Shown here: piece by piece, positions 1-34,338 of the stretch
Layout: every line of letters starts with the position of its first letter
Position numbering within the stretch: position 1 is the first letter of the stretch
Assembly (NCBI GenBank): GCA_019752815.1
Contig: JAIELQ010000015.1
Span: forward strand, 1-53,286
Source of the DNA: Patescibacteria group bacterium
GTDB lineage: Bacteria > Patescibacteriota > Minisyncoccia > Phycocordibacterales > UBA918
Reading direction: 5' to 3'
DNA length: 53,286 bases
Notes under the pieces: generated by a model
The model's database searches: none
Told to the model about the DNA's origin: nothing
The model's input: the letters and a program-made list of their open reading frames with translations, nothing else
Made by a program: the position numbers and the translations under genes

Positions 1-103
1 GGAGTTCCTTAATCATAGCCTGCGCCGTTGCCGGGTTTTGCCAAAAGTCAGCTGCCAACATGGCAGTTTCAATTTCGGTAATGCGGGAATTAGTTTCTGA
101 CAT
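1..103 (-). CDS. prfB: Peptide chain release factor 2 (PCRF domain), 5' part only; runs off window
   Basis: Manual translation MSETNSRITEIETAMLAADFWQNPATAQAMIKEL matches the RF2 N-terminal M..PDFW.D...AQ..MKEL pattern; TATACT box 9 nt upstream of ATG. Confidence 0.75.
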   Translation of the reverse strand, partial: MSETNSRITEIETAMLAADFWQNPATAQAMIKEL

Positions 104-120
104 TTCACGCGTAGTATACC

Positions 121-157
121 AAAAAAAGCGGGTGGGCAGAATTTTTGCCACCCGCTT
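121..157 (-). terminator. Intrinsic terminator after GNAT-like ORF
   Basis: AAGCGGGTGG/CCACCCGCTT stem followed by T-run on minus strand. Confidence 0.7.
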
Positions 158-168
158 CACTTTTTGAC

Positions 169-699
169 TTAACGACGGACATATTGCACCGCCGGATGTA
201 CCTTATATCCAATGTCCGTAAACTGACTATCATCATTACGACCTGAGGTATCTGTTGCAGTAAAGGAAAGTTTCCGATACTCTTCCCATTTTTCATTACA
301 GGCCTCCTCCAGCATTTCAACCACTAACGATCCAAGTCCGAGCTCGCGGCGAGACGATTCAATAACCAGATTACGGACACTCACGACAGCTTGACCAGCT
401 GGAAACGTTAATGAAGCCTGAACTGAGGCTGCTAGTTGATCTCGCTCAAAACAACACAGCAACAACTCATGTGGCCTTCTGGCTAACTTGATGAGTTCAG
501 ATAACGTAATGCCGCCAAATTCTGGACATACATTTTTCATCAAACTCGTGTACTGAATAATAAAAGCTTGAATTGGTAACTCACCTATGTCAAACAGGGT
601 TGTTTGTATCCAATTACAAACATCAACGCAACGATACTCACGCTTTTTATTAGTTACCAAACGGTACGAAGAACTCATGGTGCGATTCTCCCTAGGCAA
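169..699 (-). CDS. Putative GNAT-fold acetyltransferase-like protein (start uncertain)
   Basis: VRNLVIESSRRELGLGSLVVEMLEEAC resembles the GNAT acetyl-CoA motif A; F..IGY near the C-terminus. Confidence 0.45.
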   Translation of the reverse strand: MPRENRTMSSSYRLVTNKKREYRCVDVCNWIQTTLFDIGELPIQAFIIQYTSLMKNVCPEFGGITLSELIKLARRPHELLLCCFERDQLAASVQASLTFPAGQAVVSVRNLVIESSRRELGLGSLVVEMLEEACNEKWEEYRKLSFTATDTSGRNDDSQFTDIGYKVHPAVQYVRR

Positions 700-761
700 T
701 CTGCACTAATAATAACTCTTAATTTACATATAAAGTTACAGAAATATTTTAATTAAACGTA

Positions 762-958
762 TTTGAGCCATCAAACAGAATCGGTCACGAATCACTAAGT
801 AGGTTATTTGCCTTCGGCTCATAACCTACTAAGTGTTCTTGACCACGTCTCAACTGTCGCAAAGCGACATGTTTCTGACTTTCGATTCTGTACGAAAGCT
901 GCGCAGGCAGCTTTCTTTGATGGCAAACAAAAAACCCTAAAAAGGGTTTTTTGTTTTG
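762..958 (-). repeat. tRNA-Thr 3' trailer element: hairpin, split inverted 3'-end copy (881-924), hairpins, direct 3'-end copy (762-783)
   Basis: 22-bp exact direct repeat 762-783 = 955-976; inverted copy TTCGATTCTGT[25 nt hairpin]TTGATGGC. Confidence 0.9.
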
Positions 959-1233
959 AGCCATCAAACAGAATCGAACTGTTGACCTTCGCCTTCGCTT
1001 ACACCTCAGTTTATAAAAAGTAATATCTGAGGACTAGACTGTATATCACACATACTGCATTTACAGTGAAGTGCCCCTTGTCAGTCGTTCGGGCCCCACG
1101 TAGGTGGTGCCACGGTCTTAACCATACTTTGGTCTTTAACCGTTATTCGGGATTCGATGGAAAATTTCTTATCCAAAGGGCAAAGTCATTGCGACTTACC
1201 ATGGCGATGCTCTACCAACTGAGCTATGATGGC
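959..1233 (-). tRNA. trnT: tRNA-Thr(GGU), exons 1198-1233 and 959-995, split by a group I intron
   Basis: Joined exons fold as a full cloverleaf: GCCATCA/TGATGGC acceptor, TCGCC-ATGGTAA-GGCGA anticodon arm, AACAG-TTCGATT-CTGTT T arm. Confidence 0.93.
996..1197 (-). ncRNA. Group I intron (202 nt, no ORF) at tRNA position 36/37
   Basis: Exon ends in U, intron ends in G; P1 GGU|AAGUC-loop-GACUU-U-GCC with U.G at the splice site; P7 GACUG/CAGUC; P9 CCUCAG/CUGAGG. Confidence 0.88.
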
Positions 1234-1345
1234 TTAAATCAAAGGGTGCCTATAGTTTGCCGCGGACACCCTTTGACTTCTAACTCCTGCAGCACACAGG
1301 TTTCGAAGCACGAACATAGTAGCAAACTAAATCTATATCGCAAAA

Positions 1346-1615
1346 TTACTTATTATTCTGCCTTAAAAATTCCTTTAATTCATCTATTTGTCTGAGTATA
1401 TCTACCTTTGCTACTTGCCAATTCCCTTTTGCTATTTCACCCTCATCACCTTGTATAATTTTCTGCACATCTGCAACCACAGTCTCGAGTTGCCCCAATT
1501 TAATCGCAGCAATCCTCACGGCGTTATCTAGTAACCCTTGATCAACTAATGATTGTAATTCTGCAACAGAAACATCCTCAGATAAATCAAACGGTGTAGG
1601 TGGTTTTTCAGACAT
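1346..1615 (-). CDS. Hypothetical protein (89 aa)
   Basis: Clean ORF starting 1 nt after the stop of the upstream DUF2238-like gene. Confidence 0.65.
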   Translation of the reverse strand: MSEKPPTPFDLSEDVSVAELQSLVDQGLLDNAVRIAAIKLGQLETVVADVQKIIQGDEGEIAKGNWQVAKVDILRQIDELKEFLRQNNK

Positions 1616-1616
1616 A

Positions 1617-2222
1617 TTATTTATGTAACCTTCGTACTACAAACAAAATGCCGAGCGCAAGGACCGCTCCGCTGAAGTTAAAAATTAAATCGAGCATGGC
1701 GTTTTCATAGCCACCAACGCCGTTTTCTTCTAGCGTGACCGCAATTAAAAATTCCATAATTTCATTGAGACCACTGATTCCTAATGAAATCATTGCGGCA
1801 GCAAGACCAACCAAGAATACATGTCCGGTGACTTTCAGTGGAACCCGCAGCGTATGATGTGCCATCAGGGCTACCAATCCATAGAGATACGCATGCACTA
1901 CCTGATCGTACTTTAGAATGTAAAAATCTCCGCCATAATCCAAGAAGGGATAGATGCGGTGGGCAAATAATACATGATCTCCAATTTGCACCGCCCCACC
2001 CGCCACGTGCATTAATCCCCAAATAGAGAGAAGCCACAGCATCCAAATTGGAAATTGTGTTGCTCTCAGTGTAGCGAACACACCAGCAAAAATCGCGACA
2101 ATCACTGCCACATAGATAACAAATTCATTATTGAGGTCACGCAAAAAATAGATACCGCCGGCAATTAAATAGACAGCTGAAAATCCGATAATGTACCAGT
2201 GTTGTTTAGATAATGCCGACAT
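1617..2222 (-). CDS. DUF2238/YjdF-like inner membrane protein
   Basis: Multiple TM helices with H..GG, YDQVVH and NEIMEF motifs. Confidence 0.75.
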   Translation of the reverse strand: MSALSKQHWYIIGFSAVYLIAGGIYFLRDLNNEFVIYVAVIVAIFAGVFATLRATQFPIWMLWLLSIWGLMHVAGGAVQIGDHVLFAHRIYPFLDYGGDFYILKYDQVVHAYLYGLVALMAHHTLRVPLKVTGHVFLVGLAAAMISLGISGLNEIMEFLIAVTLEENGVGGYENAMLDLIFNFSGAVLALGILFVVRRLHK

Positions 2223-2263
2223 ATGATTAAAGTGATTGTAATGACATTATTTTATCACGCGAT

Positions 2264-3784
2264 TTAGTAATCGCGGGCCCCCTCACCTCCCAGGCCGTAT
2301 CTCATAAGGGCTTCTTCGCGCGCCTGCTTATGTTCAATAATGGGAACACTTGGCGCATTCAGACTAAACGCGCCATCACTTCGTAACCACCTCTCTTGAT
2401 AGGCTCCTGAAGCATCATAATTTTTTGCTTGTAATTCAGCGTTAAAAATGCGAATTGGTTTAGGGTCGGCACCAACTGACGCTCCCCACTGCCAGCCACC
2501 ATTATTTGATGCTTCATCCAGGTCAATTAACACTGCTCTAAAATATTCCTGTCCCCAACGCCAATCCACACCAAAGTTCTTGGTTAAGATGCTCGCCACA
2601 ATCATGCGCGAGCGATTATGCATCCAACCGGTTTCTGCTAGTTGTTTCATAGCCGCGTCCACAATTGAATATCCAGTTTCTCCTTTCATCCAGGCAAGAA
2701 AACGAGCCTGTGCAGTTTCAGTATCGACCCACTGTATTGTCCCCTGAAACTTCTTTTGAAATTCAGTGTCCATCAAATCAGGACGATGGAATAGTTGGTA
2801 CCGGTAGAACTCGCGCCAGATGAGTTCCGAAATATAGGTTAGTGCCCCCTCACTCACCCGGGTTGAGAACGGGTTATCAAATGATTCGTCAAAGTGTTTT
2901 TGCATCATCTGCATCAACGTGCGGGCAGAGACCAACCCCCAGGCGAGCGCCAGACTCATTTTTGAAGTCTTCCCAGTATAGGCAGTGCGAGTCTCGTCAT
3001 GATTGGCCGCATCTAGTTCTAATGAATCACGGTTTTTCTTATAGGCATCGAGGTCGCCAGATTTTAAGTAGTCTGCAAAACGTTTCAGGGCTTCGGCTTC
3101 GGTAGTGTACCAACCAGCCATGTTTTGTAGAGGTATGAGCTCAGCCAAATCAAGCGTGGTTCCGGCGATAGTAAGTAAACGTTTTTTACTAAAAGTTTCA
3201 AAAATAGCTCCTGTGGTATTAGACAAAAGGTTTGGAAGAGCGGGTATTTCTTTGCTGGAAAGATATGATAATTCCTGAATCGGTTGAAAGGTAGGTTGGG
3301 GTTTATACGTAATAAATCGTGCCCAGACATTTTTCTTAAACGGGGTGAATACACTATATAAATTACCTTCTCCAGAACGAGTGTCTTTAGGAACTGACAA
3401 GGCGTCTTCAAGGACAGTGACGTTTACTCCAGCGTTTTGCAACTTAGTAATTTGTTTGTAGAAATCGATATACACATCATCATTTACAAATACCGTGAGT
3501 TGGTATTTTTTACCTAGTTCAATAAGGTATTGGGCGCCTTTCCCTGTCACAATCGCAAATTGTTCAAACTGTGAAGCAAATTGTGGCAACGCTTCAGAGA
3601 GGAACCAGCGTGACGGGCAACCAAATTGGAAAGCTGGGTCACCAGCCGTCATATAGTCTTCTAGAATAAAGAGTGGGAGGAAGGCAGTTTTATGTTCTAC
3701 TGCATATGATGATGCAGCGAGCAAGGCAGGGTTGTCGGCGAGGCGGAGGTCCCGGCGGGACCAGTAGATGGTGAGTGGGGGCAT
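2264..3784 (-). CDS. phrB: Deoxyribodipyrimidine (CPD) photolyase
   Basis: W.RRDLRL.DNPAL N-terminus; ELIWREFY, TGY.IVDAAM, GWMHNR.RM, D.D.ASNNGGWQW FAD-domain motifs. Confidence 0.95.
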   Translation of the reverse strand: MPPLTIYWSRRDLRLADNPALLAASSYAVEHKTAFLPLFILEDYMTAGDPAFQFGCPSRWFLSEALPQFASQFEQFAIVTGKGAQYLIELGKKYQLTVFVNDDVYIDFYKQITKLQNAGVNVTVLEDALSVPKDTRSGEGNLYSVFTPFKKNVWARFITYKPQPTFQPIQELSYLSSKEIPALPNLLSNTTGAIFETFSKKRLLTIAGTTLDLAELIPLQNMAGWYTTEAEALKRFADYLKSGDLDAYKKNRDSLELDAANHDETRTAYTGKTSKMSLALAWGLVSARTLMQMMQKHFDESFDNPFSTRVSEGALTYISELIWREFYRYQLFHRPDLMDTEFQKKFQGTIQWVDTETAQARFLAWMKGETGYSIVDAAMKQLAETGWMHNRSRMIVASILTKNFGVDWRWGQEYFRAVLIDLDEASNNGGWQWGASVGADPKPIRIFNAELQAKNYDASGAYQERWLRSDGAFSLNAPSVPIIEHKQAREEALMRYGLGGEGARDY

Positions 3785-3816
3785 GGGTGTAAGTGTAGCA
3801 GAAGATAGGAAATGTT

Positions 3817-4216
3817 GGGAGTGAGGGGATTCGGTGATGGATAATTTTAAGGCTCTTTATGGTCACGAATCACTAAGTAAACTAACGCGATGGGATTCGG
3901 TCACAAATAATTTCTTACAGAAATTTTCGCGACCCCGGCGCACTTGTGGCAAAGCCACAGCGTTTACGCCTTTCGAATCCCACCAGAAAGCGCACAGGCG
4001 CTTTCTTTCGCTCGCGCAAATGAAAAAGCCCCGAAGGGCTCTTTCATTTGCGCGAGCGATGGGATTCGAACTCTACGAGTTCAGTACCCCAATTGGCTGG
4101 ATTGGTGCGCTGCGCTTCCAATCCAGCTCAATTGGGCTTCGAATCCCAGCAAAATGTGTCCCACACATTTTGCCGTCGCTCGCACAAAAAAAACGGCTGA
4201 TGCCGTTCTTTTTTTG
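3817..4216 (-). repeat. Two tandem tRNA-Asp 3' trailer units plus decayed remnants
   Basis: Direct copies at 4049-4071, 3886-3898 and decayed 3817-3833; split inverted copies at 4138-4183 and 3972-4018. Confidence 0.9.
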
Positions 4217-4290
4217 CGCGAGCGATGGGATTCGAACCCACGGCCTCTTCCGTGACAGGGAAGCGCTCTAACCAGCTGAGCTACGCCCGC
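4217..4290 (-). tRNA. trnD: tRNA-Asp(GUC)
   Basis: Cloverleaf; anticodon arm CTTCC-CTGTCAC-GGAAG; discriminator G. Confidence 0.97.
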
Positions 4291-4366
4291 AATTCTTCAC
4301 TATTACCCAGGTAATAGGTGGCAAGAGTATATACACTTTTAGTTAAAAGGGCAATATCCTGCGTTG

Positions 4367-5245: not shown

Positions 5246-5550
5246 AGCGGGTTAGAGGAGAGGTACCTCGGGAGGCTCAATTAGGGCTCATCCACAGAAA
5301 TGTGAAATGGAATCCTTGCCAAATTCGGTGAAACCTTCGTTTGCTTGCAAATTGAGAACATGGCAATACCGAGCCAAGCCTTTAATAATTAATTACTAAA
5401 GGAAGGTGTAGAGACTAGATGGTAAGTATCTGACTTTGCGCAGGCAAAAAGATAAAGGTATAGTCCAGACCCCAAATCTATTTATAGAGTAGCGAAAGCT
5501 ATAGTGGTATGCATAACCTCCAGACTCCGGTTCGATTCCGGAACCCGCAA
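5246..5550 (+). tRNA. trnfM: Initiator-type tRNA-fMet(CAU), exons 5246-5277 and 5512-5550, split by a group I intron
   Basis: Joined exons give an A1xA72 mismatch, GCGGGT/ACCCGC acceptor, GGAGG-CTCATAA-CCTCC anticodon arm and A73. Confidence 0.88.
5278..5511 (+). ncRNA. Group I intron (234 nt, no ORF) at tRNA position 33/34
   Basis: P/Q/R/S-like elements AAATTCGGTGAAACC, AATACCGAGCCAAGC, GTAGAGACTAGA, AAGGTATAGTCC; U before and G at the splice sites. Confidence 0.92.
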
Positions 5551-5750
5551 CAATATGAAAAAGCTCCGGCAATTGCCGGAGCTTTTTCATATTGTTGCGG
5601 GTTAGAACGTGCACTGCTGCACGTTCGTCCGGAATCGAACGACCGCAGTGATGTCGTTAGACGAACGAGGTGGGGTCGACAGCACTTACTATAATTGGAA
5701 CGAAGTGAACAATTTTAGTTAGTGACTGGTGACTCGGTTCCGAAACCCAC
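5551..5750 (+). repeat. tRNA-fMet 3' trailer element
   Basis: Perfect 62-bp palindrome 5542-5603; split inverted copy 5595-5640; shared motif 5716-5733; decayed direct copy 5736-5750. Confidence 0.88.
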
Positions 5751-5761
5751 CGACCAACCTT

Positions 5762-21633: not shown

Positions 21634-22257
21634 ATGCTATACCCGTTTCAACATATTTTTGATTTTATTTTTCCACCAACAGATCATGAACTTTTATTGC
21701 GTACGGTTACCCCACAAAGATTTATCACGTGGTATCGACCGAACACCAGTCACACCATAGTCTATCTTAGTGAGTATCATCTCACCGAAGTACAAGCAGC
21801 AATCGCCGCCTGCAAATTTGAACATAATTATCATGCCGCCAAATTACTCGGAGCTTTGGTTCATACTCACCTACTAACACTCCCAAAGAAAAAGACGTTA
21901 CTGATTCCCACCCCCCTTAGTGTAAAGCGACAGCGAAAACGGATGTTTAATCAAGTCGAACGGGTTCTACACGCTGTTGGCACATTGCCGTTCCACACTC
22001 AGATTAATACCAATTTACTAACTCGTACCATTCATACCGCCCCACAAACGTCTCTCTCGCGTACAGCGCGCTTAACAAACATACGAGGAGCATTTGCAGT
22101 TACTGAGAAAAATCTAAACTGTTTGCATGGCATTGAGAGAATCATTATTTGTGACGATGTACTGACTACTGGAGCAACACTCGTGGCGGCAAAGGAGACA
22201 CTCCTACCGTATATTTCAAATAAAATTGAGGTTATTTGTATGTCGTGGACACATTAG
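21634..22257 (+). CDS. comF: ComF-family phosphoribosyltransferase-fold competence protein
   Basis: KF, P.PLS..R...R.FNQ, Q....R..R..N..GAF, DDVLTTGAT. Confidence 0.88.
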   Translation: MLYPFQHIFDFIFPPTDHELLLRTVTPQRFITWYRPNTSHTIVYLSEYHLTEVQAAIAACKFEHNYHAAKLLGALVHTHLLTLPKKKTLLIPTPLSVKRQRKRMFNQVERVLHAVGTLPFHTQINTNLLTRTIHTAPQTSLSRTARLTNIRGAFAVTEKNLNCLHGIERIIICDDVLTTGATLVAAKETLLPYISNKIEVICMSWTH

Positions 22258-22259
22258 GT

Positions 22260-22483
22260 GGAAGATGTGAGATTCGGTCACCAGTCACTAACTATAATTT
22301 ATCGCTAAGCTCAAATTCTAGTAAGTACTGTCGACCCGAGAAACAGTGTCTATACACTGTTTCTCCGTCTGTCGCTAAAGCGACATGACTCCGACCTTCG
22401 AATCTCAACGTAAAGCGCGCAGGCGCTTTACTCATCTTCCGCCCAATAAAATAACCGCCTTTAAGGGCGGTATTTTATACGGG
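22260..22483 (-). repeat. tRNA-Ser(ACU) 3' trailer element
   Basis: Direct copy 22260-22276 = 22485-22501; split inverted copy 22397-22444; hairpins at 22276-22336, 22338-22365, 22370-22385, 22445-22480. Confidence 0.9.
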
Positions 22484-22570
22484 CGGAAGATGTGAGATTC
22501 GAACTCACGGGCCACTTTCGCAGCCGACAGTTTAGTAAACTGTTGATTTAAACCACTCATCCAATCTTCC
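22484..22570 (-). tRNA. trnS: tRNA-Ser with ACU anticodon (class II, long variable arm)
   Basis: GGAAGAT/ATCTTCC acceptor, G73, ACAGT-TTACTAA-ACTGT anticodon arm, GGCTGC-GAAA-GTGGCC variable arm, GTGAG-TTCGAAT-CTCAC T arm. Confidence 0.9.
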
Positions 22571-22688
22571 ATACAGTTCGTTTTACTCACATGGAAGCCG
22601 CTTGCGCGGTTCATTGGAGTCGTGGTCGGTACTTTGTACCAGTACAGTCTGCAACTGTGCAGACTGTACCCATTTCATCCAATCTTCC
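22571..22688 (-). repeat. 5' leader element of tRNA-Ser(ACU) with direct and split inverted copies of the tRNA 5' end
   Basis: 22675-22688 = 22557-22570 (14 nt); GGAAG[15 nt hairpin]ATTGGA at 22593-22618; perfect 12-bp stem 22642-22669. Confidence 0.75.
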
Positions 22689-25414: not shown

Positions 25415-25443
25415 GTCAAAAAAAATATAGAAATATTGTAGCA

Positions 25444-25619
25444 CGGGCGGAGAAGAGAGGATTCGAAACTTACAGTTTCGGTACACCCTTCATATCGTAC
25501 TCGCTATCGCTCCGTGCGATATATTCAGGGTTTTCGAATCCCTACACAAGAGACGTTTAGTCTCTTGCTCCTTTTCCGCCCAATAAAATAACCGCCCGTA
25601 AGGCGGTATTTTATACGGG
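25444..25619 (-). repeat. tRNA-Ser(GCU) 3' trailer element
   Basis: Decayed direct copy 25444-25467 (20/24 matches); split inverted copy 25533-25581; hairpin 25582-25616. Confidence 0.88.
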
Positions 25620-34262: not shown

Positions 34263-34335
34263 CCATCCATAGCTCAGTTGGTAGAGCGTTCGTCTTATAC
34301 ACGGATGGTCCTTGGTTCGAATCCAAGTGGATGGA
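34263..34335 (+). tRNA. trnI: tRNA-Ile(UAU)
   Basis: CCATCCA/TGGATGG acceptor, TTCGT-CTTATAC-ACGGA anticodon arm (anticodon TAT), CTTGG-TTCGAAT-CCAAG T arm, A73. Confidence 0.92.
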
Positions 34336-34338
34336 CAT

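What the first reader, a model, noticed from the sequence alone, without database searches (positions are those of the whole stretch)
783..870. Shared non-tRNA core (GGTCAC hairpin + TGTCGC-AAA-GCGACA hairpin) links trailers at different tRNAs
Seen: the junction next to the direct copy reads GATTC|GGTCAC at Thr (783), Asp (3899) and Ser(ACU) (22276), and decayed at fMet. GGTCACGAATCACTAAGTA is identical at 783-801 and 3861-3879. GTCACCAGTCACTAACTA is identical at 22277-22294 and (reverse) 5716-5733. This opens a long hairpin closed by GACC, followed by a TGTCGC/GCGACA or TGTGGC/GCCACA hairpin. A second subtype (Asp proximal, Ser(GCU)) has a GTAC-containing hairpin instead. Inference: one element family of two subtypes spread between tRNA loci, and this core is the likely protein-binding or cleavage site.
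Basis: partly seen in the sequence, partly recalled or inferred. Interest (0 to 1): 0.65.

Follow-up and report, generated by a model that had tools for sequence, protein, structure and literature searches.

The report
Gene-less hairpin elements at gene ends
The shared GGTCAC hairpin is the conserved end of a family of tiny (about 120-200 base), protein-less mobile DNA elements that insert into the last bases of tRNA genes and a few essential protein genes in ultra-small Patescibacteria, each bringing a spare copy of the gene end it displaces; I found no description of them, and the enzyme that moves them is unknown.

Summary
The motif GGTCACNNNTCACTAA occurs 10 times in the 1.04-Mb genome. 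Every copy lies within about 400 nt downstream of a tRNA gene and antisense to it.

The motif is one arm of a 62-nt imperfect hairpin (hp3) that ends a modular, gene-less unit. Read in the sense of the gene, the unit runs:
- the gene's own 3' end (x);
- a terminator hairpin;
- an inverted copy of x (x'), split or preceded by a small hairpin H;
- hairpin hp2;
- hairpin hp3, or a second "GTAC" core type;
- then the displaced older copy of x.

About 46 cores exist in this genome, and 67% lie just after tRNAs (1% expected). More than 160 copies occur in over 100 contigs of Kaiserbacteria/Paceibacteria MAGs. They also sit at tmRNA, ftsZ, rplB, rplL, rplE and rpsI.

Four results argue for a mobile element:
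- Insertion is polymorphic between species.
- One unit is 95% identical between genomes whose flanking ftsZ is 75% identical.
- Units carry synonymous "surrogate" gene ends.

I read these as miniature integrative cassettes recombined as folded single strands by an unidentified trans-acting enzyme. I found no published description.

The parts
762..783 (-). Displaced direct copy of the tRNA-Thr(GGU) 3' end, from the T-loop to the discriminator plus 3 nt. It is identical to 955-976.
783..844 (-). hp3: the conserved imperfect terminal hairpin of core type A. It reads GGTCAC...GACC on the + strand, and the functional reading is the - (tRNA-sense) strand. The junction with the displaced copy lies at its base.
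845..879 (-). hp2: a hairpin with a conserved base and internal loop and a variable apical stem, here TGTCGC-AAA-GCGACA.
880..893 (-). x' (t'): a 12-14-nt inverted copy of the T-loop and 3' T-stem strand. It spans the insertion junction and is the guide-like segment.
894..915 (-). H: a 9-bp hairpin with a covarying stem and a conserved CTGC loop on the sense strand (GCAG on +).
916..925 (-). a': an inverted copy of the acceptor 3' strand of tRNA-Thr.
926..956 (-). A: a terminator-like hairpin brought by the unit, placed directly after the tRNA.
958..1233 (-). tRNA-Thr(GGU) with a 202-nt intron. Its 3' end (x) is the left arm of the unit's long hairpin.
3861..3898 (-). Remnant of a third, oldest Asp unit: the 3' arm of hp3 (3861-3886) plus a partial tRNA-Asp end copy (3887-3898). 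It is absent from relative G061.
3899..4048 (-). Distal tRNA-Asp unit with a short variant of core A: hp3 variant 3899-3934, hp2 3935-3970, t' 3971-3984, H 3985-4006, a' 4007-4018, A 4019-4048. It is orthologous to the single unit of G061.
4049..4071 (-). Middle copy of the tRNA-Asp 3' end. It is the x of the distal unit, displaced by the proximal unit.
4072..4215 (-). Proximal tRNA-Asp unit, core type B (GTAC type): core 4072-4137, t' 4138-4149, H 4150-4172, a' 4173-4184, A 4185-4215. This is an insertion relative to G061.
5552..5752 (+). tRNA-fMet unit, core type A, on the + strand: A 5552-5590, a' 5591-5603, H 5604-5627, t' 5628-5640, hp2 5641-5671, hp3 5672-5734, decayed displaced copy 5735-5752.
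22255..22480 (-). tRNA-Ser(ACU) unit, core type A: displaced copy ~22255-22275, hp3 22276-22337, extra hairpin 22338-22365, hp2 22366-22396, t' 22397-22408, H 22409-22432, a' 22433-22444, A 22445-22480.
25443..25617 (-). tRNA-Ser(GCU) unit, core type B variant: displaced copy ~25443-25467, core ~25468-25532, t' 25533-25545, H 25546-25569, a' 25570-25582, A 25583-25617.

Best explanation
The GGTCAC hairpin is the terminal recognition structure (hp3) of a family of miniature, protein-less, site-specific integrative cassettes.

Structure of a unit, read in the sense of the host gene:
- x, a copy of the last 5-40 nt of the target gene. After insertion this copy becomes the functional gene end (a 'surrogate').
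- A terminator hairpin, or simply the stop codon as the loop.
- x', an inverted copy of x that spans the insertion point. It is usually split or preceded by hairpin H.
- A conserved core: hp2 plus hp3 (type A), or a long hairpin plus a GTA-loop mini-hairpin (type B).
- The older gene end follows immediately, pushed downstream.

New units enter next to the gene, so tandem arrays grow like integron arrays. Some cassettes carry cargo genes.

Inferred mechanism. The unit acts as a folded single strand of gene-sense polarity. In a circular intermediate x' pairs with x, so a duplex copy of the target abuts the conserved hairpins. A trans-acting host enzyme exchanges strands at the base of hp3 (...GTGACC|x). 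For tRNAs this is after C56 of the T-loop or after position 72; for ftsZ it is between the Ala and Val codons of WGA|VPAF. Target choice would be set by the x/x' sequence rather than by the protein.

The enzyme is unidentified. The only recombinase found in nearly every carrier genome is the single Xer-like tyrosine recombinase.

Shown: the architecture, orientation, mobility, horizontal transfer, surrogate ends, and single-strand structural selection. Inferred: the circular folded intermediate, the guide role of x', and the enzyme.
For: Association and orientation.
- In the own genome 31 of 46 cores lie within 500 nt downstream of a tRNA on the same strand, against 1% expected.
- In 117 contigs of other Patescibacteria MAGs, 110 of 164 hp3 copies lie downstream of a tRNA or tmRNA on the same strand and 1 on the opposite strand; the median distance is 133 nt.

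Mobility.
- The coreB unit at tRNA-Asp is a precise extra insertion relative to G061, which keeps only the distal unit.
- The paralogous tRNA-Thr-prfB locus on contig C3 has no unit.
- ftsZ in L138 is an empty site.

Horizontal transfer.
- The ftsZ units of L091 and L106 are 95.2% identical (159/167). The upstream ftsZ coding sequence is 75.4% identical and the downstream sequence 43%.

Surrogate gene ends.
- The resident and displaced ftsZ ends both encode VPAFLRRSKLK but differ at up to 10 synonymous sites, including AGC/TCA serine.
- The three rplE ends encode LPLVAKAE, VPLVAKTE and LPIVAKAE.
- The surrogate end travels with the unit, while the displaced end is genome-specific.

Single-strand structure.
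- In hp3, 97.6% of cells pair on the sense strand and 92.3% on the antisense strand. Ten of 22 pairs show compensatory changes, and 0 of 500 shuffles reach the observed value.
- There are 85 G.T pairs against 9 A.C pairs.
- Invariant features are the G7.T61 wobble, the mismatches A8/G60, T16/T51 and G21/A46, and the bulged A56.
- The Thr unit folds at -67.4 kcal/mol with z = -13.5.

x' matches its own (left) x.
- Among cases with 2 or fewer mismatches to either copy, the count is 8 left, 0 right and 1 tie; overall it is 50 left against 19 right.
- There is a compensatory x/x' change, GTGCC/GGCAC against GTTCC/GGAAC.

Cargo.
- Cargo cassettes at tRNA-Asn are bounded by tRNA-end copies, each preceded by degenerate cores.

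Enzymes.
- One Xer-like tyrosine recombinase was found in 38 of 41 genomes.
- RT, TnpB and IS110 are rare or absent.
Against: - No enzyme has been tied to the elements. Xer is universal, so its presence is uninformative, and Xer normally needs a dif-like site, which I did not find in hp3.
- How x and x' are re-made for each of 30 or more different targets is unexplained. An inverted copy of up to 38 nt of coding sequence implies a templated copying step that ordinary site-specific recombination does not provide.
- The sense-strand bias fits an RNA as well as single-stranded DNA.
- The units show no bias with respect to the replication strand (25 against 21). The lagging-strand-template route used by IS608 and attC is therefore not supported.
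Confidence: 0.5

Rival explanations
1. The units are non-autonomous IS200/IS605-like or REP-like elements. A Y1 HUH transposase (RAYT-like), acting in trans, would move them as single-stranded DNA by peel-and-paste, with x' serving as an extended guide for the cleavage site.
For: - The structure is strand-specific: imperfect hairpins with invariant mismatches and a bulge, strict orientation, and guide-like complementarity across the junction.
- A RAYT-like HUH gene is present in the own genome (C1:193353-194003) and in 17 of 25 congeners.
Against: - Each RAYT-like gene is flanked by its own palindromes, which differ from genome to genome and none of which resembles hp3. hp3 itself is conserved across the class.
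- No Y1 gene was found in G010 (9 copies) or G019 (17 copies).
- The own genome's flanking palindrome occurs only at that gene.
- There is no left-end hairpin resembling hp3.
- There is no replication-strand bias.
Confidence: 0.1
2. The conserved structure works as RNA. The unit would be read through from the strong upstream gene, giving a structured trailer RNA. Two roles are possible:
- a guide RNA for an unknown recombinase or nuclease, in the manner of bridge RNAs or omega-RNAs, with x' or the downstream x as the guide;
- a mobile intermediate that is copied back into DNA.
For: - The bias in G.U pairs and mismatches favours the sense strand.
- GNRA-type GGGA loops occur in several type-B H hairpins.
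- The targets are highly expressed genes, and orientation is always sense.
- The guide-like segment has a constant length of 12-14 nt between two hairpins.
Against: - Each unit begins with its own terminator hairpin, which would limit read-through.
- Reverse transcriptase is present in only 6 of 25 congeners. TnpB and IS110 are essentially absent.
- No Rfam family matches, even at E up to 5.
- No expression data could be obtained.
Confidence: 0.12
3. The units are not mobile as such. They would be scars, joined attL and attR ends, left by internal deletion of larger integrase-bearing islands that target the same genes. That would make them comparable to cis-mobilisable elements (CIMEs).
For: - Large islands do integrate at the same tRNAs. 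A 20.4-kb segment lies between tRNA-Ala(tgc) and a displaced tRNA end on C2.
- Cargo-bearing cassettes occur at tRNA-Asn.
- The direct repeats running from the T-loop to the 3' end are the classical att signature. This last point rests on my own knowledge of tRNA-targeting integrases, not on a tool result.
Against: - There are about 46 units of two uniform core types in 1 Mb, and hundreds across the class, all sharing one compact architecture and none containing an integrase fragment.
- A near-identical 167-nt unit occurs in two distant genomes with no larger element attached.
- The right junction of the 20-kb island carries no core.
- Covariation shows selection on the hairpins themselves.
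Confidence: 0.08
4. No dedicated enzyme is involved. Units would spread by DNA uptake and homology-facilitated recombination, using the conserved gene as one anchor and the short x repeat as the other. Template switching at the terminator hairpin (quasipalindrome correction) would create and maintain x'.
For: - x' must arise by templated copying, because it is a perfect inverted copy of up to 38 nt of coding sequence.
- x/x' changes are compensatory.
- In L091 the first 12 nt of the resident and displaced ftsZ ends are identical, which is compatible with a crossover inside x.
Against: - The right junction is at exactly the same base in every genome and for many different tRNAs (..GTGACC|GA.., after C56).
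- x' matches the left copy right up to the junction even where the left and right copies differ, as in L106.
- The homology available on the tRNA side is only about 50 nt, and the ftsZ flanks are 75% identical, which is poor for RecA.
- This model does not explain the strongly conserved, covarying core hairpins.
Confidence: 0.1

Closest known systems
Integron gene cassettes and their attC sites (folded single-stranded recombination sites)
   Same: - The cassettes have no recombinase of their own.
- The topology is the same: [x ... x' core]|[next x]. The start of each cassette is complementary to a box just before the structured site, as with R'/R''.
- The site is an imperfect hairpin with conserved unpaired bases and a covarying stem, and one strand is the active one.
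- New cassettes enter at the proximal primary site, and arrays include cassettes with and without ORFs.
   Different: - There is no IntI-type integrase. The only tyrosine recombinase is Xer-like.
- The primary site is the 3' end of a tRNA or essential gene, not attI.
- The outer stem is 10-40 nt long, specific to the target, and carries a working replacement of the gene end.
- The structured strand is the gene-sense strand.
- The core sequence is strongly conserved rather than only its structure.
Integrative elements that target gene 3' ends and carry a replacement end (P4-type islands in tRNA genes; e14 and phage 21 in icd). This comparison rests on my own knowledge of the literature.
   Same: - The direct repeats run from the T-loop to the 3' end of the tRNA.
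- The element-borne surrogate end differs from the displaced native end mostly at synonymous sites.
- Tandem arrays occur at one tRNA.
   Different: - Those elements are several kb long and encode their own tyrosine integrase and arm-type sites.
- These units are 120-200 nt, encode nothing, consist of three or four hairpins, and contain an inverted copy of the target.
IMEX elements such as CTX phage, which hijack host XerCD through a folded single-stranded attP hairpin. This comparison rests on my own knowledge of the literature.
   Same: - There is no recombinase of their own, and a host Xer enzyme is the candidate catalyst.
- The recombination site is made by folding one strand so that two inverted segments form a duplex copy of the chromosomal target.
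- Tandem integration occurs.
   Different: - IMEX elements integrate at dif. These units integrate at 30 or more different gene ends, each matched by its own x/x'.
- No dif-like sequence was recognised in the core.
REP/BIME/REPIN repeats with RAYT transposases, and IS200/IS605-derived palindrome-associated elements
   Same: - They are short, imperfect, strand-specific hairpins just after genes, present in high copy number with no coding capacity.
- HUH (RAYT-like) genes are present in many carrier genomes.
   Different: - REPs carry no copy of the neighbouring gene end, are not site-specific, and flank their cognate RAYT gene.
- Here the RAYT-like genes have other flanking palindromes.
- These units insert at one exact base of conserved genes.
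IS110/IS1111 bridge-RNA recombination and IS605 TnpB omega-RNA (programmable, base-pairing target choice)
   Same: - A constant-length segment (x', 12-14 nt) lies between structured hairpins.
- It is complementary to the target across the insertion point and is customised for each target.
   Different: - IS110 recombinases and TnpB are absent from the own genome and from nearly all carriers.
- The complementarity here is to the same strand of the target and is also satisfied in cis.

Membership tests
Integron cassette / attC | An IntI-type integron integrase is encoded in the genome or next to the array. | tested here: not met
   There is a single tyrosine recombinase per genome. Its best matches are XerC/XerD/XerA models at 163-183 bits, and the integron-integrase model scores only 70 bits against a cutoff of 265. 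There is no recombinase in the tRNA-Asn array.
Integron cassette / attC | An imperfect palindromic site that folds as a single strand, with conserved unpaired bases and structure-based conservation. | tested here: met
   hp3 shows 10 of 22 pairs with compensatory changes, invariant mismatches and a bulged A, and a strand asymmetry of 97.6% against 92.3% paired.
Integron cassette / attC | Conserved R''/R' boxes (RYYYAAC / GTTRRRY) with the crossover in GTT. | tested here: not met
   The outer boxes are the target-specific x/x'. The junctions are ..GTGACC|GAxTC..GTGACC|ACA and ..GTGACC|NGTNCC.
Integrase-driven tRNA-integrating island (P4-like), or its deletion derivative (CIME) | Direct repeats made of the tRNA 3' end flank the element. 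| tested here: met
   Copies running from the T-loop to the discriminator flank the units at Thr, Asp, Ser, Gln, Phe, Pro, Leu, Lys and others.
Integrase-driven tRNA-integrating island (P4-like), or its deletion derivative (CIME) | A cognate integrase encoded by an autonomous family member that shares the same ends. | tested here: not met
   No unit or cargo cassette encodes a recombinase. The 20-kb island at tRNA-Ala(tgc) lacks the core at its junction. There were 0 hits in 2.9 million viral contigs.
REP/REPIN-RAYT system | The repeats flank the single-copy RAYT gene and match its cognate hairpin. | tested here: not met
   The RAYT-like genes of 20 loci are flanked by other, genome-specific palindromes. 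The own-genome palindrome is confined to that gene.
IS200/IS605-derived non-autonomous element (PATE) | A Y1 HUH transposase is present wherever the elements are numerous, and similar subterminal hairpins sit at both ends. | tested here: not met
   No Y1 hit was found in G010 or G019, which hold 9 and 17 copies. The left end has no hp3-like hairpin.
MITE (TIR transposon derivative) | Terminal inverted repeats common to all copies, plus a short target-site duplication of fixed length. | tested here: not met
   The inverted segments are copies of each target and differ between loci. The repeat length varies from about 3 nt to 40 nt with the target, and the two repeat copies can differ at many synonymous sites.
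IMEX (Xer-dependent integrative element) | Integration at the chromosomal dif site through a dif-like attP. | tested here: not met
   The targets are the 3' ends of tRNA, tmRNA, ftsZ and ribosomal protein genes. dif itself was not identified.
Known structured RNA families (Rfam 15) | A match to a curated covariance model. | tested here: not met
   Nothing beyond tRNA, tmRNA and a group I intron matched at the gathering thresholds. Only chance-level matches appeared at E up to 5 over window 700-4300.

The most novel reading that the evidence does not exclude
A new kind of programmable DNA insertion. A conserved, still unidentified Patescibacterial enzyme would recognise the hp2/hp3/H hairpin scaffold of a 150-nt single-stranded cassette. 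It would use the adjacent 12-14-nt x' segment, base-paired across the cleavage point, to choose the target. Any conserved gene end could then be colonised, provided the cassette also carries a surrogate copy of that end. Re-targeting would involve a templated fold-back copying step that writes both x and x'. This would be a protein-plus-structured-DNA (or RNA) guide system unrelated to IS110, TnpB/IscB, integron or Cas enzymes.
Probability: 0.3. Interest if true: 0.92.

Novelty: new variant of a known kind. Interest (0 to 1): 0.8.

Why it matters
These elements are among the smallest site-specific integrative elements I know of. They have colonised about half of the tRNA genes, and several essential genes, of a 1-Mb genome, and they are spread across a whole class of uncultivated bacteria.

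- They show that a gene end can be swapped for a foreign, synonymous copy by a 150-nt passenger with no genes.
- The matched x/x' arms point to target choice by base pairing rather than by protein-DNA recognition. If the enzyme is found, it could be a compact, re-programmable insertion system.
- The elements supply terminators to tRNA genes and build cassette arrays. They also create long hairpins that overlap tRNA 3' halves and stop codons, so they probably affect gene expression and genome plasticity in Patescibacteria.
- In practice, they confound tRNA and terminator annotation and break MAG assemblies at tRNA loci.

Tried and rejected
- Known RNA families: none matched.
- Literature: three full-text searches returned nothing that describes these elements. 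A fourth query was malformed.
- Enzyme by phyletic pattern over 41 genomes:
  - the tyrosine recombinase is universal and therefore uninformative;
  - Y1 HUH is partial and mismatched;
  - RT is rare;
  - TnpB is absent;
  - IS110 is absent.
  - Serine recombinases, Cas1 and LAGLIDADG were not profiled.
- Phage or plasmid carriers: there were 0 hits in viral contigs.
- Whole-trailer strand asymmetry by minimum free energy was inconclusive. The pair-level G.T against A.C count resolved it.
- Replication-strand bias as a test of the lagging-template single-strand route: none, 25 against 21.
- A link between the mini units and the serine-integrase island at tRNA-Ala(tgc): rejected. The island lies between the tRNA and an older unit, and its own junction lacks a core.
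- The idea that a' is a copy of the tRNA's 5' acceptor strand, making the unit a tRNA pseudogene: rejected. a' complements the 3' strand exactly where the tRNA itself has a G.U pair, at Asp position 4/69.
- The automatic left-against-right x' comparison is noisy. Only the subset with few mismatches is used.
Full report
**Context.** The window is contig C7 of a 1.04-Mb, 22-contig, 44% GC genome. The genome has a tmRNA, group I introns in tRNA genes and very few mobile-element enzymes. Records that carry the same motif are Kaiserbacteria, Paceibacteria, Nomurabacteria, Yonathbacteria and Parcubacteria MAGs. The organism is therefore a Patescibacterium (CPR) of the Paceibacteria class.

**1.
- GGTCACNNNTCACTAA with up to 1 mismatch occurs 4 times in the window against 0.05 expected.
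- It occurs 10 times exactly in the genome. Each copy lies within about 400 nt downstream of a tRNA gene and on the opposite strand.
- The junction at Thr reads GAATC|GGTCAC rather than GATTC, a small slip.
- The second 'GTAC' subtype is real and has 24 copies in the genome.

**2. Anatomy.** Downstream of about 25 of the 43 tRNA/tmRNA genes the same order recurs. Read in the tRNA sense it is:
- the tRNA;
- a terminator-like hairpin A;
- an inverted copy of the acceptor 3' strand (a');
- a 9-bp hairpin H, with a variable, covarying stem and, in type A units, a conserved CTGC loop;
- an inverted copy of the T-loop and 3' T-stem (t', 12-14 nt);
- a core;
- a direct copy of the tRNA 3' end, starting in the T-loop.

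Core type A consists of two hairpins. Core type B is a long bulged hairpin followed by ..GTACTGAA.. and a mini-hairpin with a GTA loop.

The sense strand of the Thr unit folds as three adjacent structures. The first is a three-way junction: x/t', a/a' capped by A, and H. The other two are hp2 and hp3. The fold has a free energy of -67.4 kcal/mol and z = -13.5.

A second insertion mode exists for type A. There the junction is ..GTGACC|ACA.., after tRNA position 72, and x' complements the last 5 nt of the tRNA plus the first 7 nt of the unit.

**3. The family is not restricted to tRNAs.**
- hp3 copies also follow rpsI and rplE and an orphan tRNA-Gln 3' fragment in this genome.
- In 117 contigs from other MAGs, 110 of 164 copies follow a tRNA or tmRNA on the same strand and 1 lies on the opposite strand.
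- Of the remaining 53 copies, at least 18 sit on the 3' ends of five genes: ftsZ (10), rplB (4), rplL (2), rpsI and rplE. The other upstream ORFs were not identified.
- In the own genome 31 of 46 cores lie within 500 nt downstream of a tRNA, against 1% expected.
- At protein genes the hairpin loop contains the stop codon, and the stem is made of the last codons and their inverted copy, up to 38 nt at ftsZ.

**4. The units are mobile and move horizontally.**
- Relative G061 has a single unit after tRNA-Asp, orthologous to the window's distal unit. The window's proximal type B unit is a precise extra insertion of [A a' H t' core + tRNA-end copy] next to the tRNA.
- The paralogous tRNA-Thr-prfB locus on C3 has neither a unit nor an intron.
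- The ftsZ-trxB intergenic region of L138 is an empty site. Filled sites in a dozen genomes all have the junction at WGA|VPAFLRRSKLK*.
- The ftsZ units of L091 and L106 are 95.2% identical over 167 nt. The upstream ftsZ coding sequence is 75.4% identical, and the downstream sequence is unalignable at 43%.
- hp3 is present in 24 of 25 genomes of the genus, at 1-20 copies, and in 3 of 16 other genera of the order.

**5. Units carry a surrogate gene end.**
- At ftsZ, the end joined to the gene and the displaced end behind the core both encode VPAFLRRSKLK but differ at up to 10 synonymous positions, including AGC/TCA serine codons.
- The end joined to the gene is nearly the same in L091 and L106, so it travels with the unit. 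The displaced ends are genome-specific.
- The three rplE ends on C20 encode LPLVAKAE*, VPLVAKTE* and LPIVAKAE*.
- This is the logic of integrative elements that rebuild the gene they interrupt.
- x' matches the unit's own (left) copy. Among clean cases the count is 8 left, 0 right and 1 tie. One x/x' difference between L091 and L106 is compensatory.
- The resulting topology, [x ... x' core]|[next x], is the same as that of integron cassettes.
- At tRNA-Asn (C1), ORF-bearing segments are bounded by tRNA-end copies at +4673 and +6028. Each copy is preceded by degenerate core remnants. None of the six ORFs looks like a recombinase by eye; they were not scanned against family libraries.

**6. The core is selected as a folded single strand of gene-sense polarity.** The evidence comes from an alignment of 65 distinct hp3 copies.
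- 10 of 22 pairs show compensatory changes on both sides.
- 97.6% of cells pair on the sense strand, 92.3% on the antisense strand, and 23-47% when partners are slid. None of 500 shuffles reaches the observed value.
- G.T pairs outnumber A.C pairs 85 to 9, or 27 to 9 without the invariant G7.T61.
- The mismatches A8/G60, T16/T51 and G21/A46 and the bulged A56 are nearly invariant.
- Covariation excludes a simple double-stranded inverted-repeat operator.

**7. The enzyme was not found.** The census covered 41 genomes.
- One Xer-like tyrosine recombinase was found in 38 of the 41 genomes. The own copy is at C1:166983-167495 and scores below the XerC/XerD equivalog cutoffs.
- RAYT-like Y1 HUH genes were found in 26 of 41 genomes, but in neither G010 nor G019, which carry many units.
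- Each RAYT-like gene is flanked by its own genome-specific palindromes, unlike hp3.
- RT was found in 10 of 41 genomes, TnpB in 1 and IS110 in 2.
- No viral contig carries the motif.
- The 20.4 kb between tRNA-Ala(tgc) and a displaced tRNA end on C2 is a separate island inserted in front of an older unit. It is not an autonomous relative.
- There is no replication-strand bias, 25 against 21.
- Read-based tests were impossible.

**8. Interpretation.**
- What is shown: a class-wide family of miniature, gene-less cassettes. They insert in one orientation at one exact base of conserved gene 3' ends. They bring a surrogate end and a terminator, stack in arrays, move between species, and have cores under selection as sense-strand hairpins.
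- What is inferred: the cassette recombines as a folded single strand. In that form x' pairs with x, so a duplex copy of the target abuts hp3, where strands are exchanged. This is the strategy of attC sites and of CTX phage. The catalyst would be a trans-acting host enzyme, and x/x' rather than the protein would set the target.
- The main gap is how x and x' are rewritten for each of 30 or more targets. A perfect inverted copy of coding sequence implies a templated fold-back step.
- The rivals are HUH peel-and-paste, an RNA guide or RNA intermediate, scars of larger islands, and enzyme-free recombination. Each explains part of the evidence and each has specific evidence against it.

**9. Novelty.** I found no matching Rfam family and no description in three full-text searches. 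The elements combine features of integron cassettes, tRNA-integrating islands and REP-like repeats, but they fail the defining tests of each. I file them as a new variant of known kinds: site-specific integrative elements and folded-hairpin recombination sites. There is a realistic chance (about 0.3) that the mechanism is a new guide-directed one.

Noticed in passing
window 958-1233 (-) and 5246-5551 (+): tRNA-Thr(GGU) carries a 202-nt intron, and initiator-like tRNA-Met(CAU) carries a 234-nt group I intron (RF00028, 67.8 bits). The Thr intron did not reach any Rfam threshold. A second, intron-less tRNA-Thr(GGU) lies on contig C3 (82473-82546).
   Followed up: partly
window 22481-22571 (-) and 34263-34336 (+): ARAGORN calls two unusual anticodons, tRNA-Ser(ACU) and tRNA-Ile(UAU). 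Both pass the Rfam tRNA model.
   Followed up: no
window 1-3790 versus genome C3:82473-85669: The first 3.8 kb of the window (prfB start, tRNA-Thr, photolyase-like gene) has a syntenic paralogue at the end of contig C3, about 76% identical. That copy lacks the unit, the intron and the ORF at 169-699. It could be a real duplication or a second strain in the bin (contamination 2.1%).
   Followed up: partly
window 169-699 (-): A 169-176-aa ORF with a borderline GNAT acetyltransferase match (20.6 bits, cutoff 20.7) sits between the displaced tRNA-Thr end and prfB. It is absent from the C3 paralogue and may be cassette cargo.
   Followed up: partly
genome C1:193353-194003 and loci L197-L213: RAYT-like Y1 HUH genes of 200-245 aa are each bracketed by a different, genome-specific perfect palindrome, for example TCTTAGGGGTTTAACCCCTAAGA here. 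In the own genome and in G007 the gene lies about 5-6 kb from rpsI. This looks like a separate, domesticated REP/RAYT-like system with very few repeats.
   Followed up: partly
genome C6:6970-7090; C17:13950-14100; loci L016, L049: Composite cores: a type B module (H with a GGGA loop, a long hairpin and a GTA mini-hairpin) is nested inside the 5' base of the type A hp3, at GGG|TCGA. That sequence resembles a T-loop, and the same composite recurs in several genomes.
   Followed up: partly
genome C2:163400-183960: About 20.4 kb separates tRNA-Ala(tgc) from a displaced copy of its 3' end, which is preceded by a complete a'-H-t'-hp2-hp3 module. Just upstream of that module lies a decayed tRNA-Ala end carrying a nested end-mode unit. 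The 20-kb segment appears to be a separate island inserted later.
   Followed up: partly
genome C2:127130-127550: An orphan array: a tRNA-Gln 3' fragment with no tRNA body, followed by one type B and one type A unit. The type B unit is nearly identical to the second unit behind tRNA-Gln(UUG) on C3.
   Followed up: no
genome C22:117-176, C4:37414-37473, C2:124603-124662, C14:17982-18039: A third group of type-B-like cores (ATTGAG..GCCAATGAGTGGACAG..CTGTAAG..) lies away from tRNAs. It is probably the stop-codon-anchored repeat family noted earlier for this genome.
   Followed up: no
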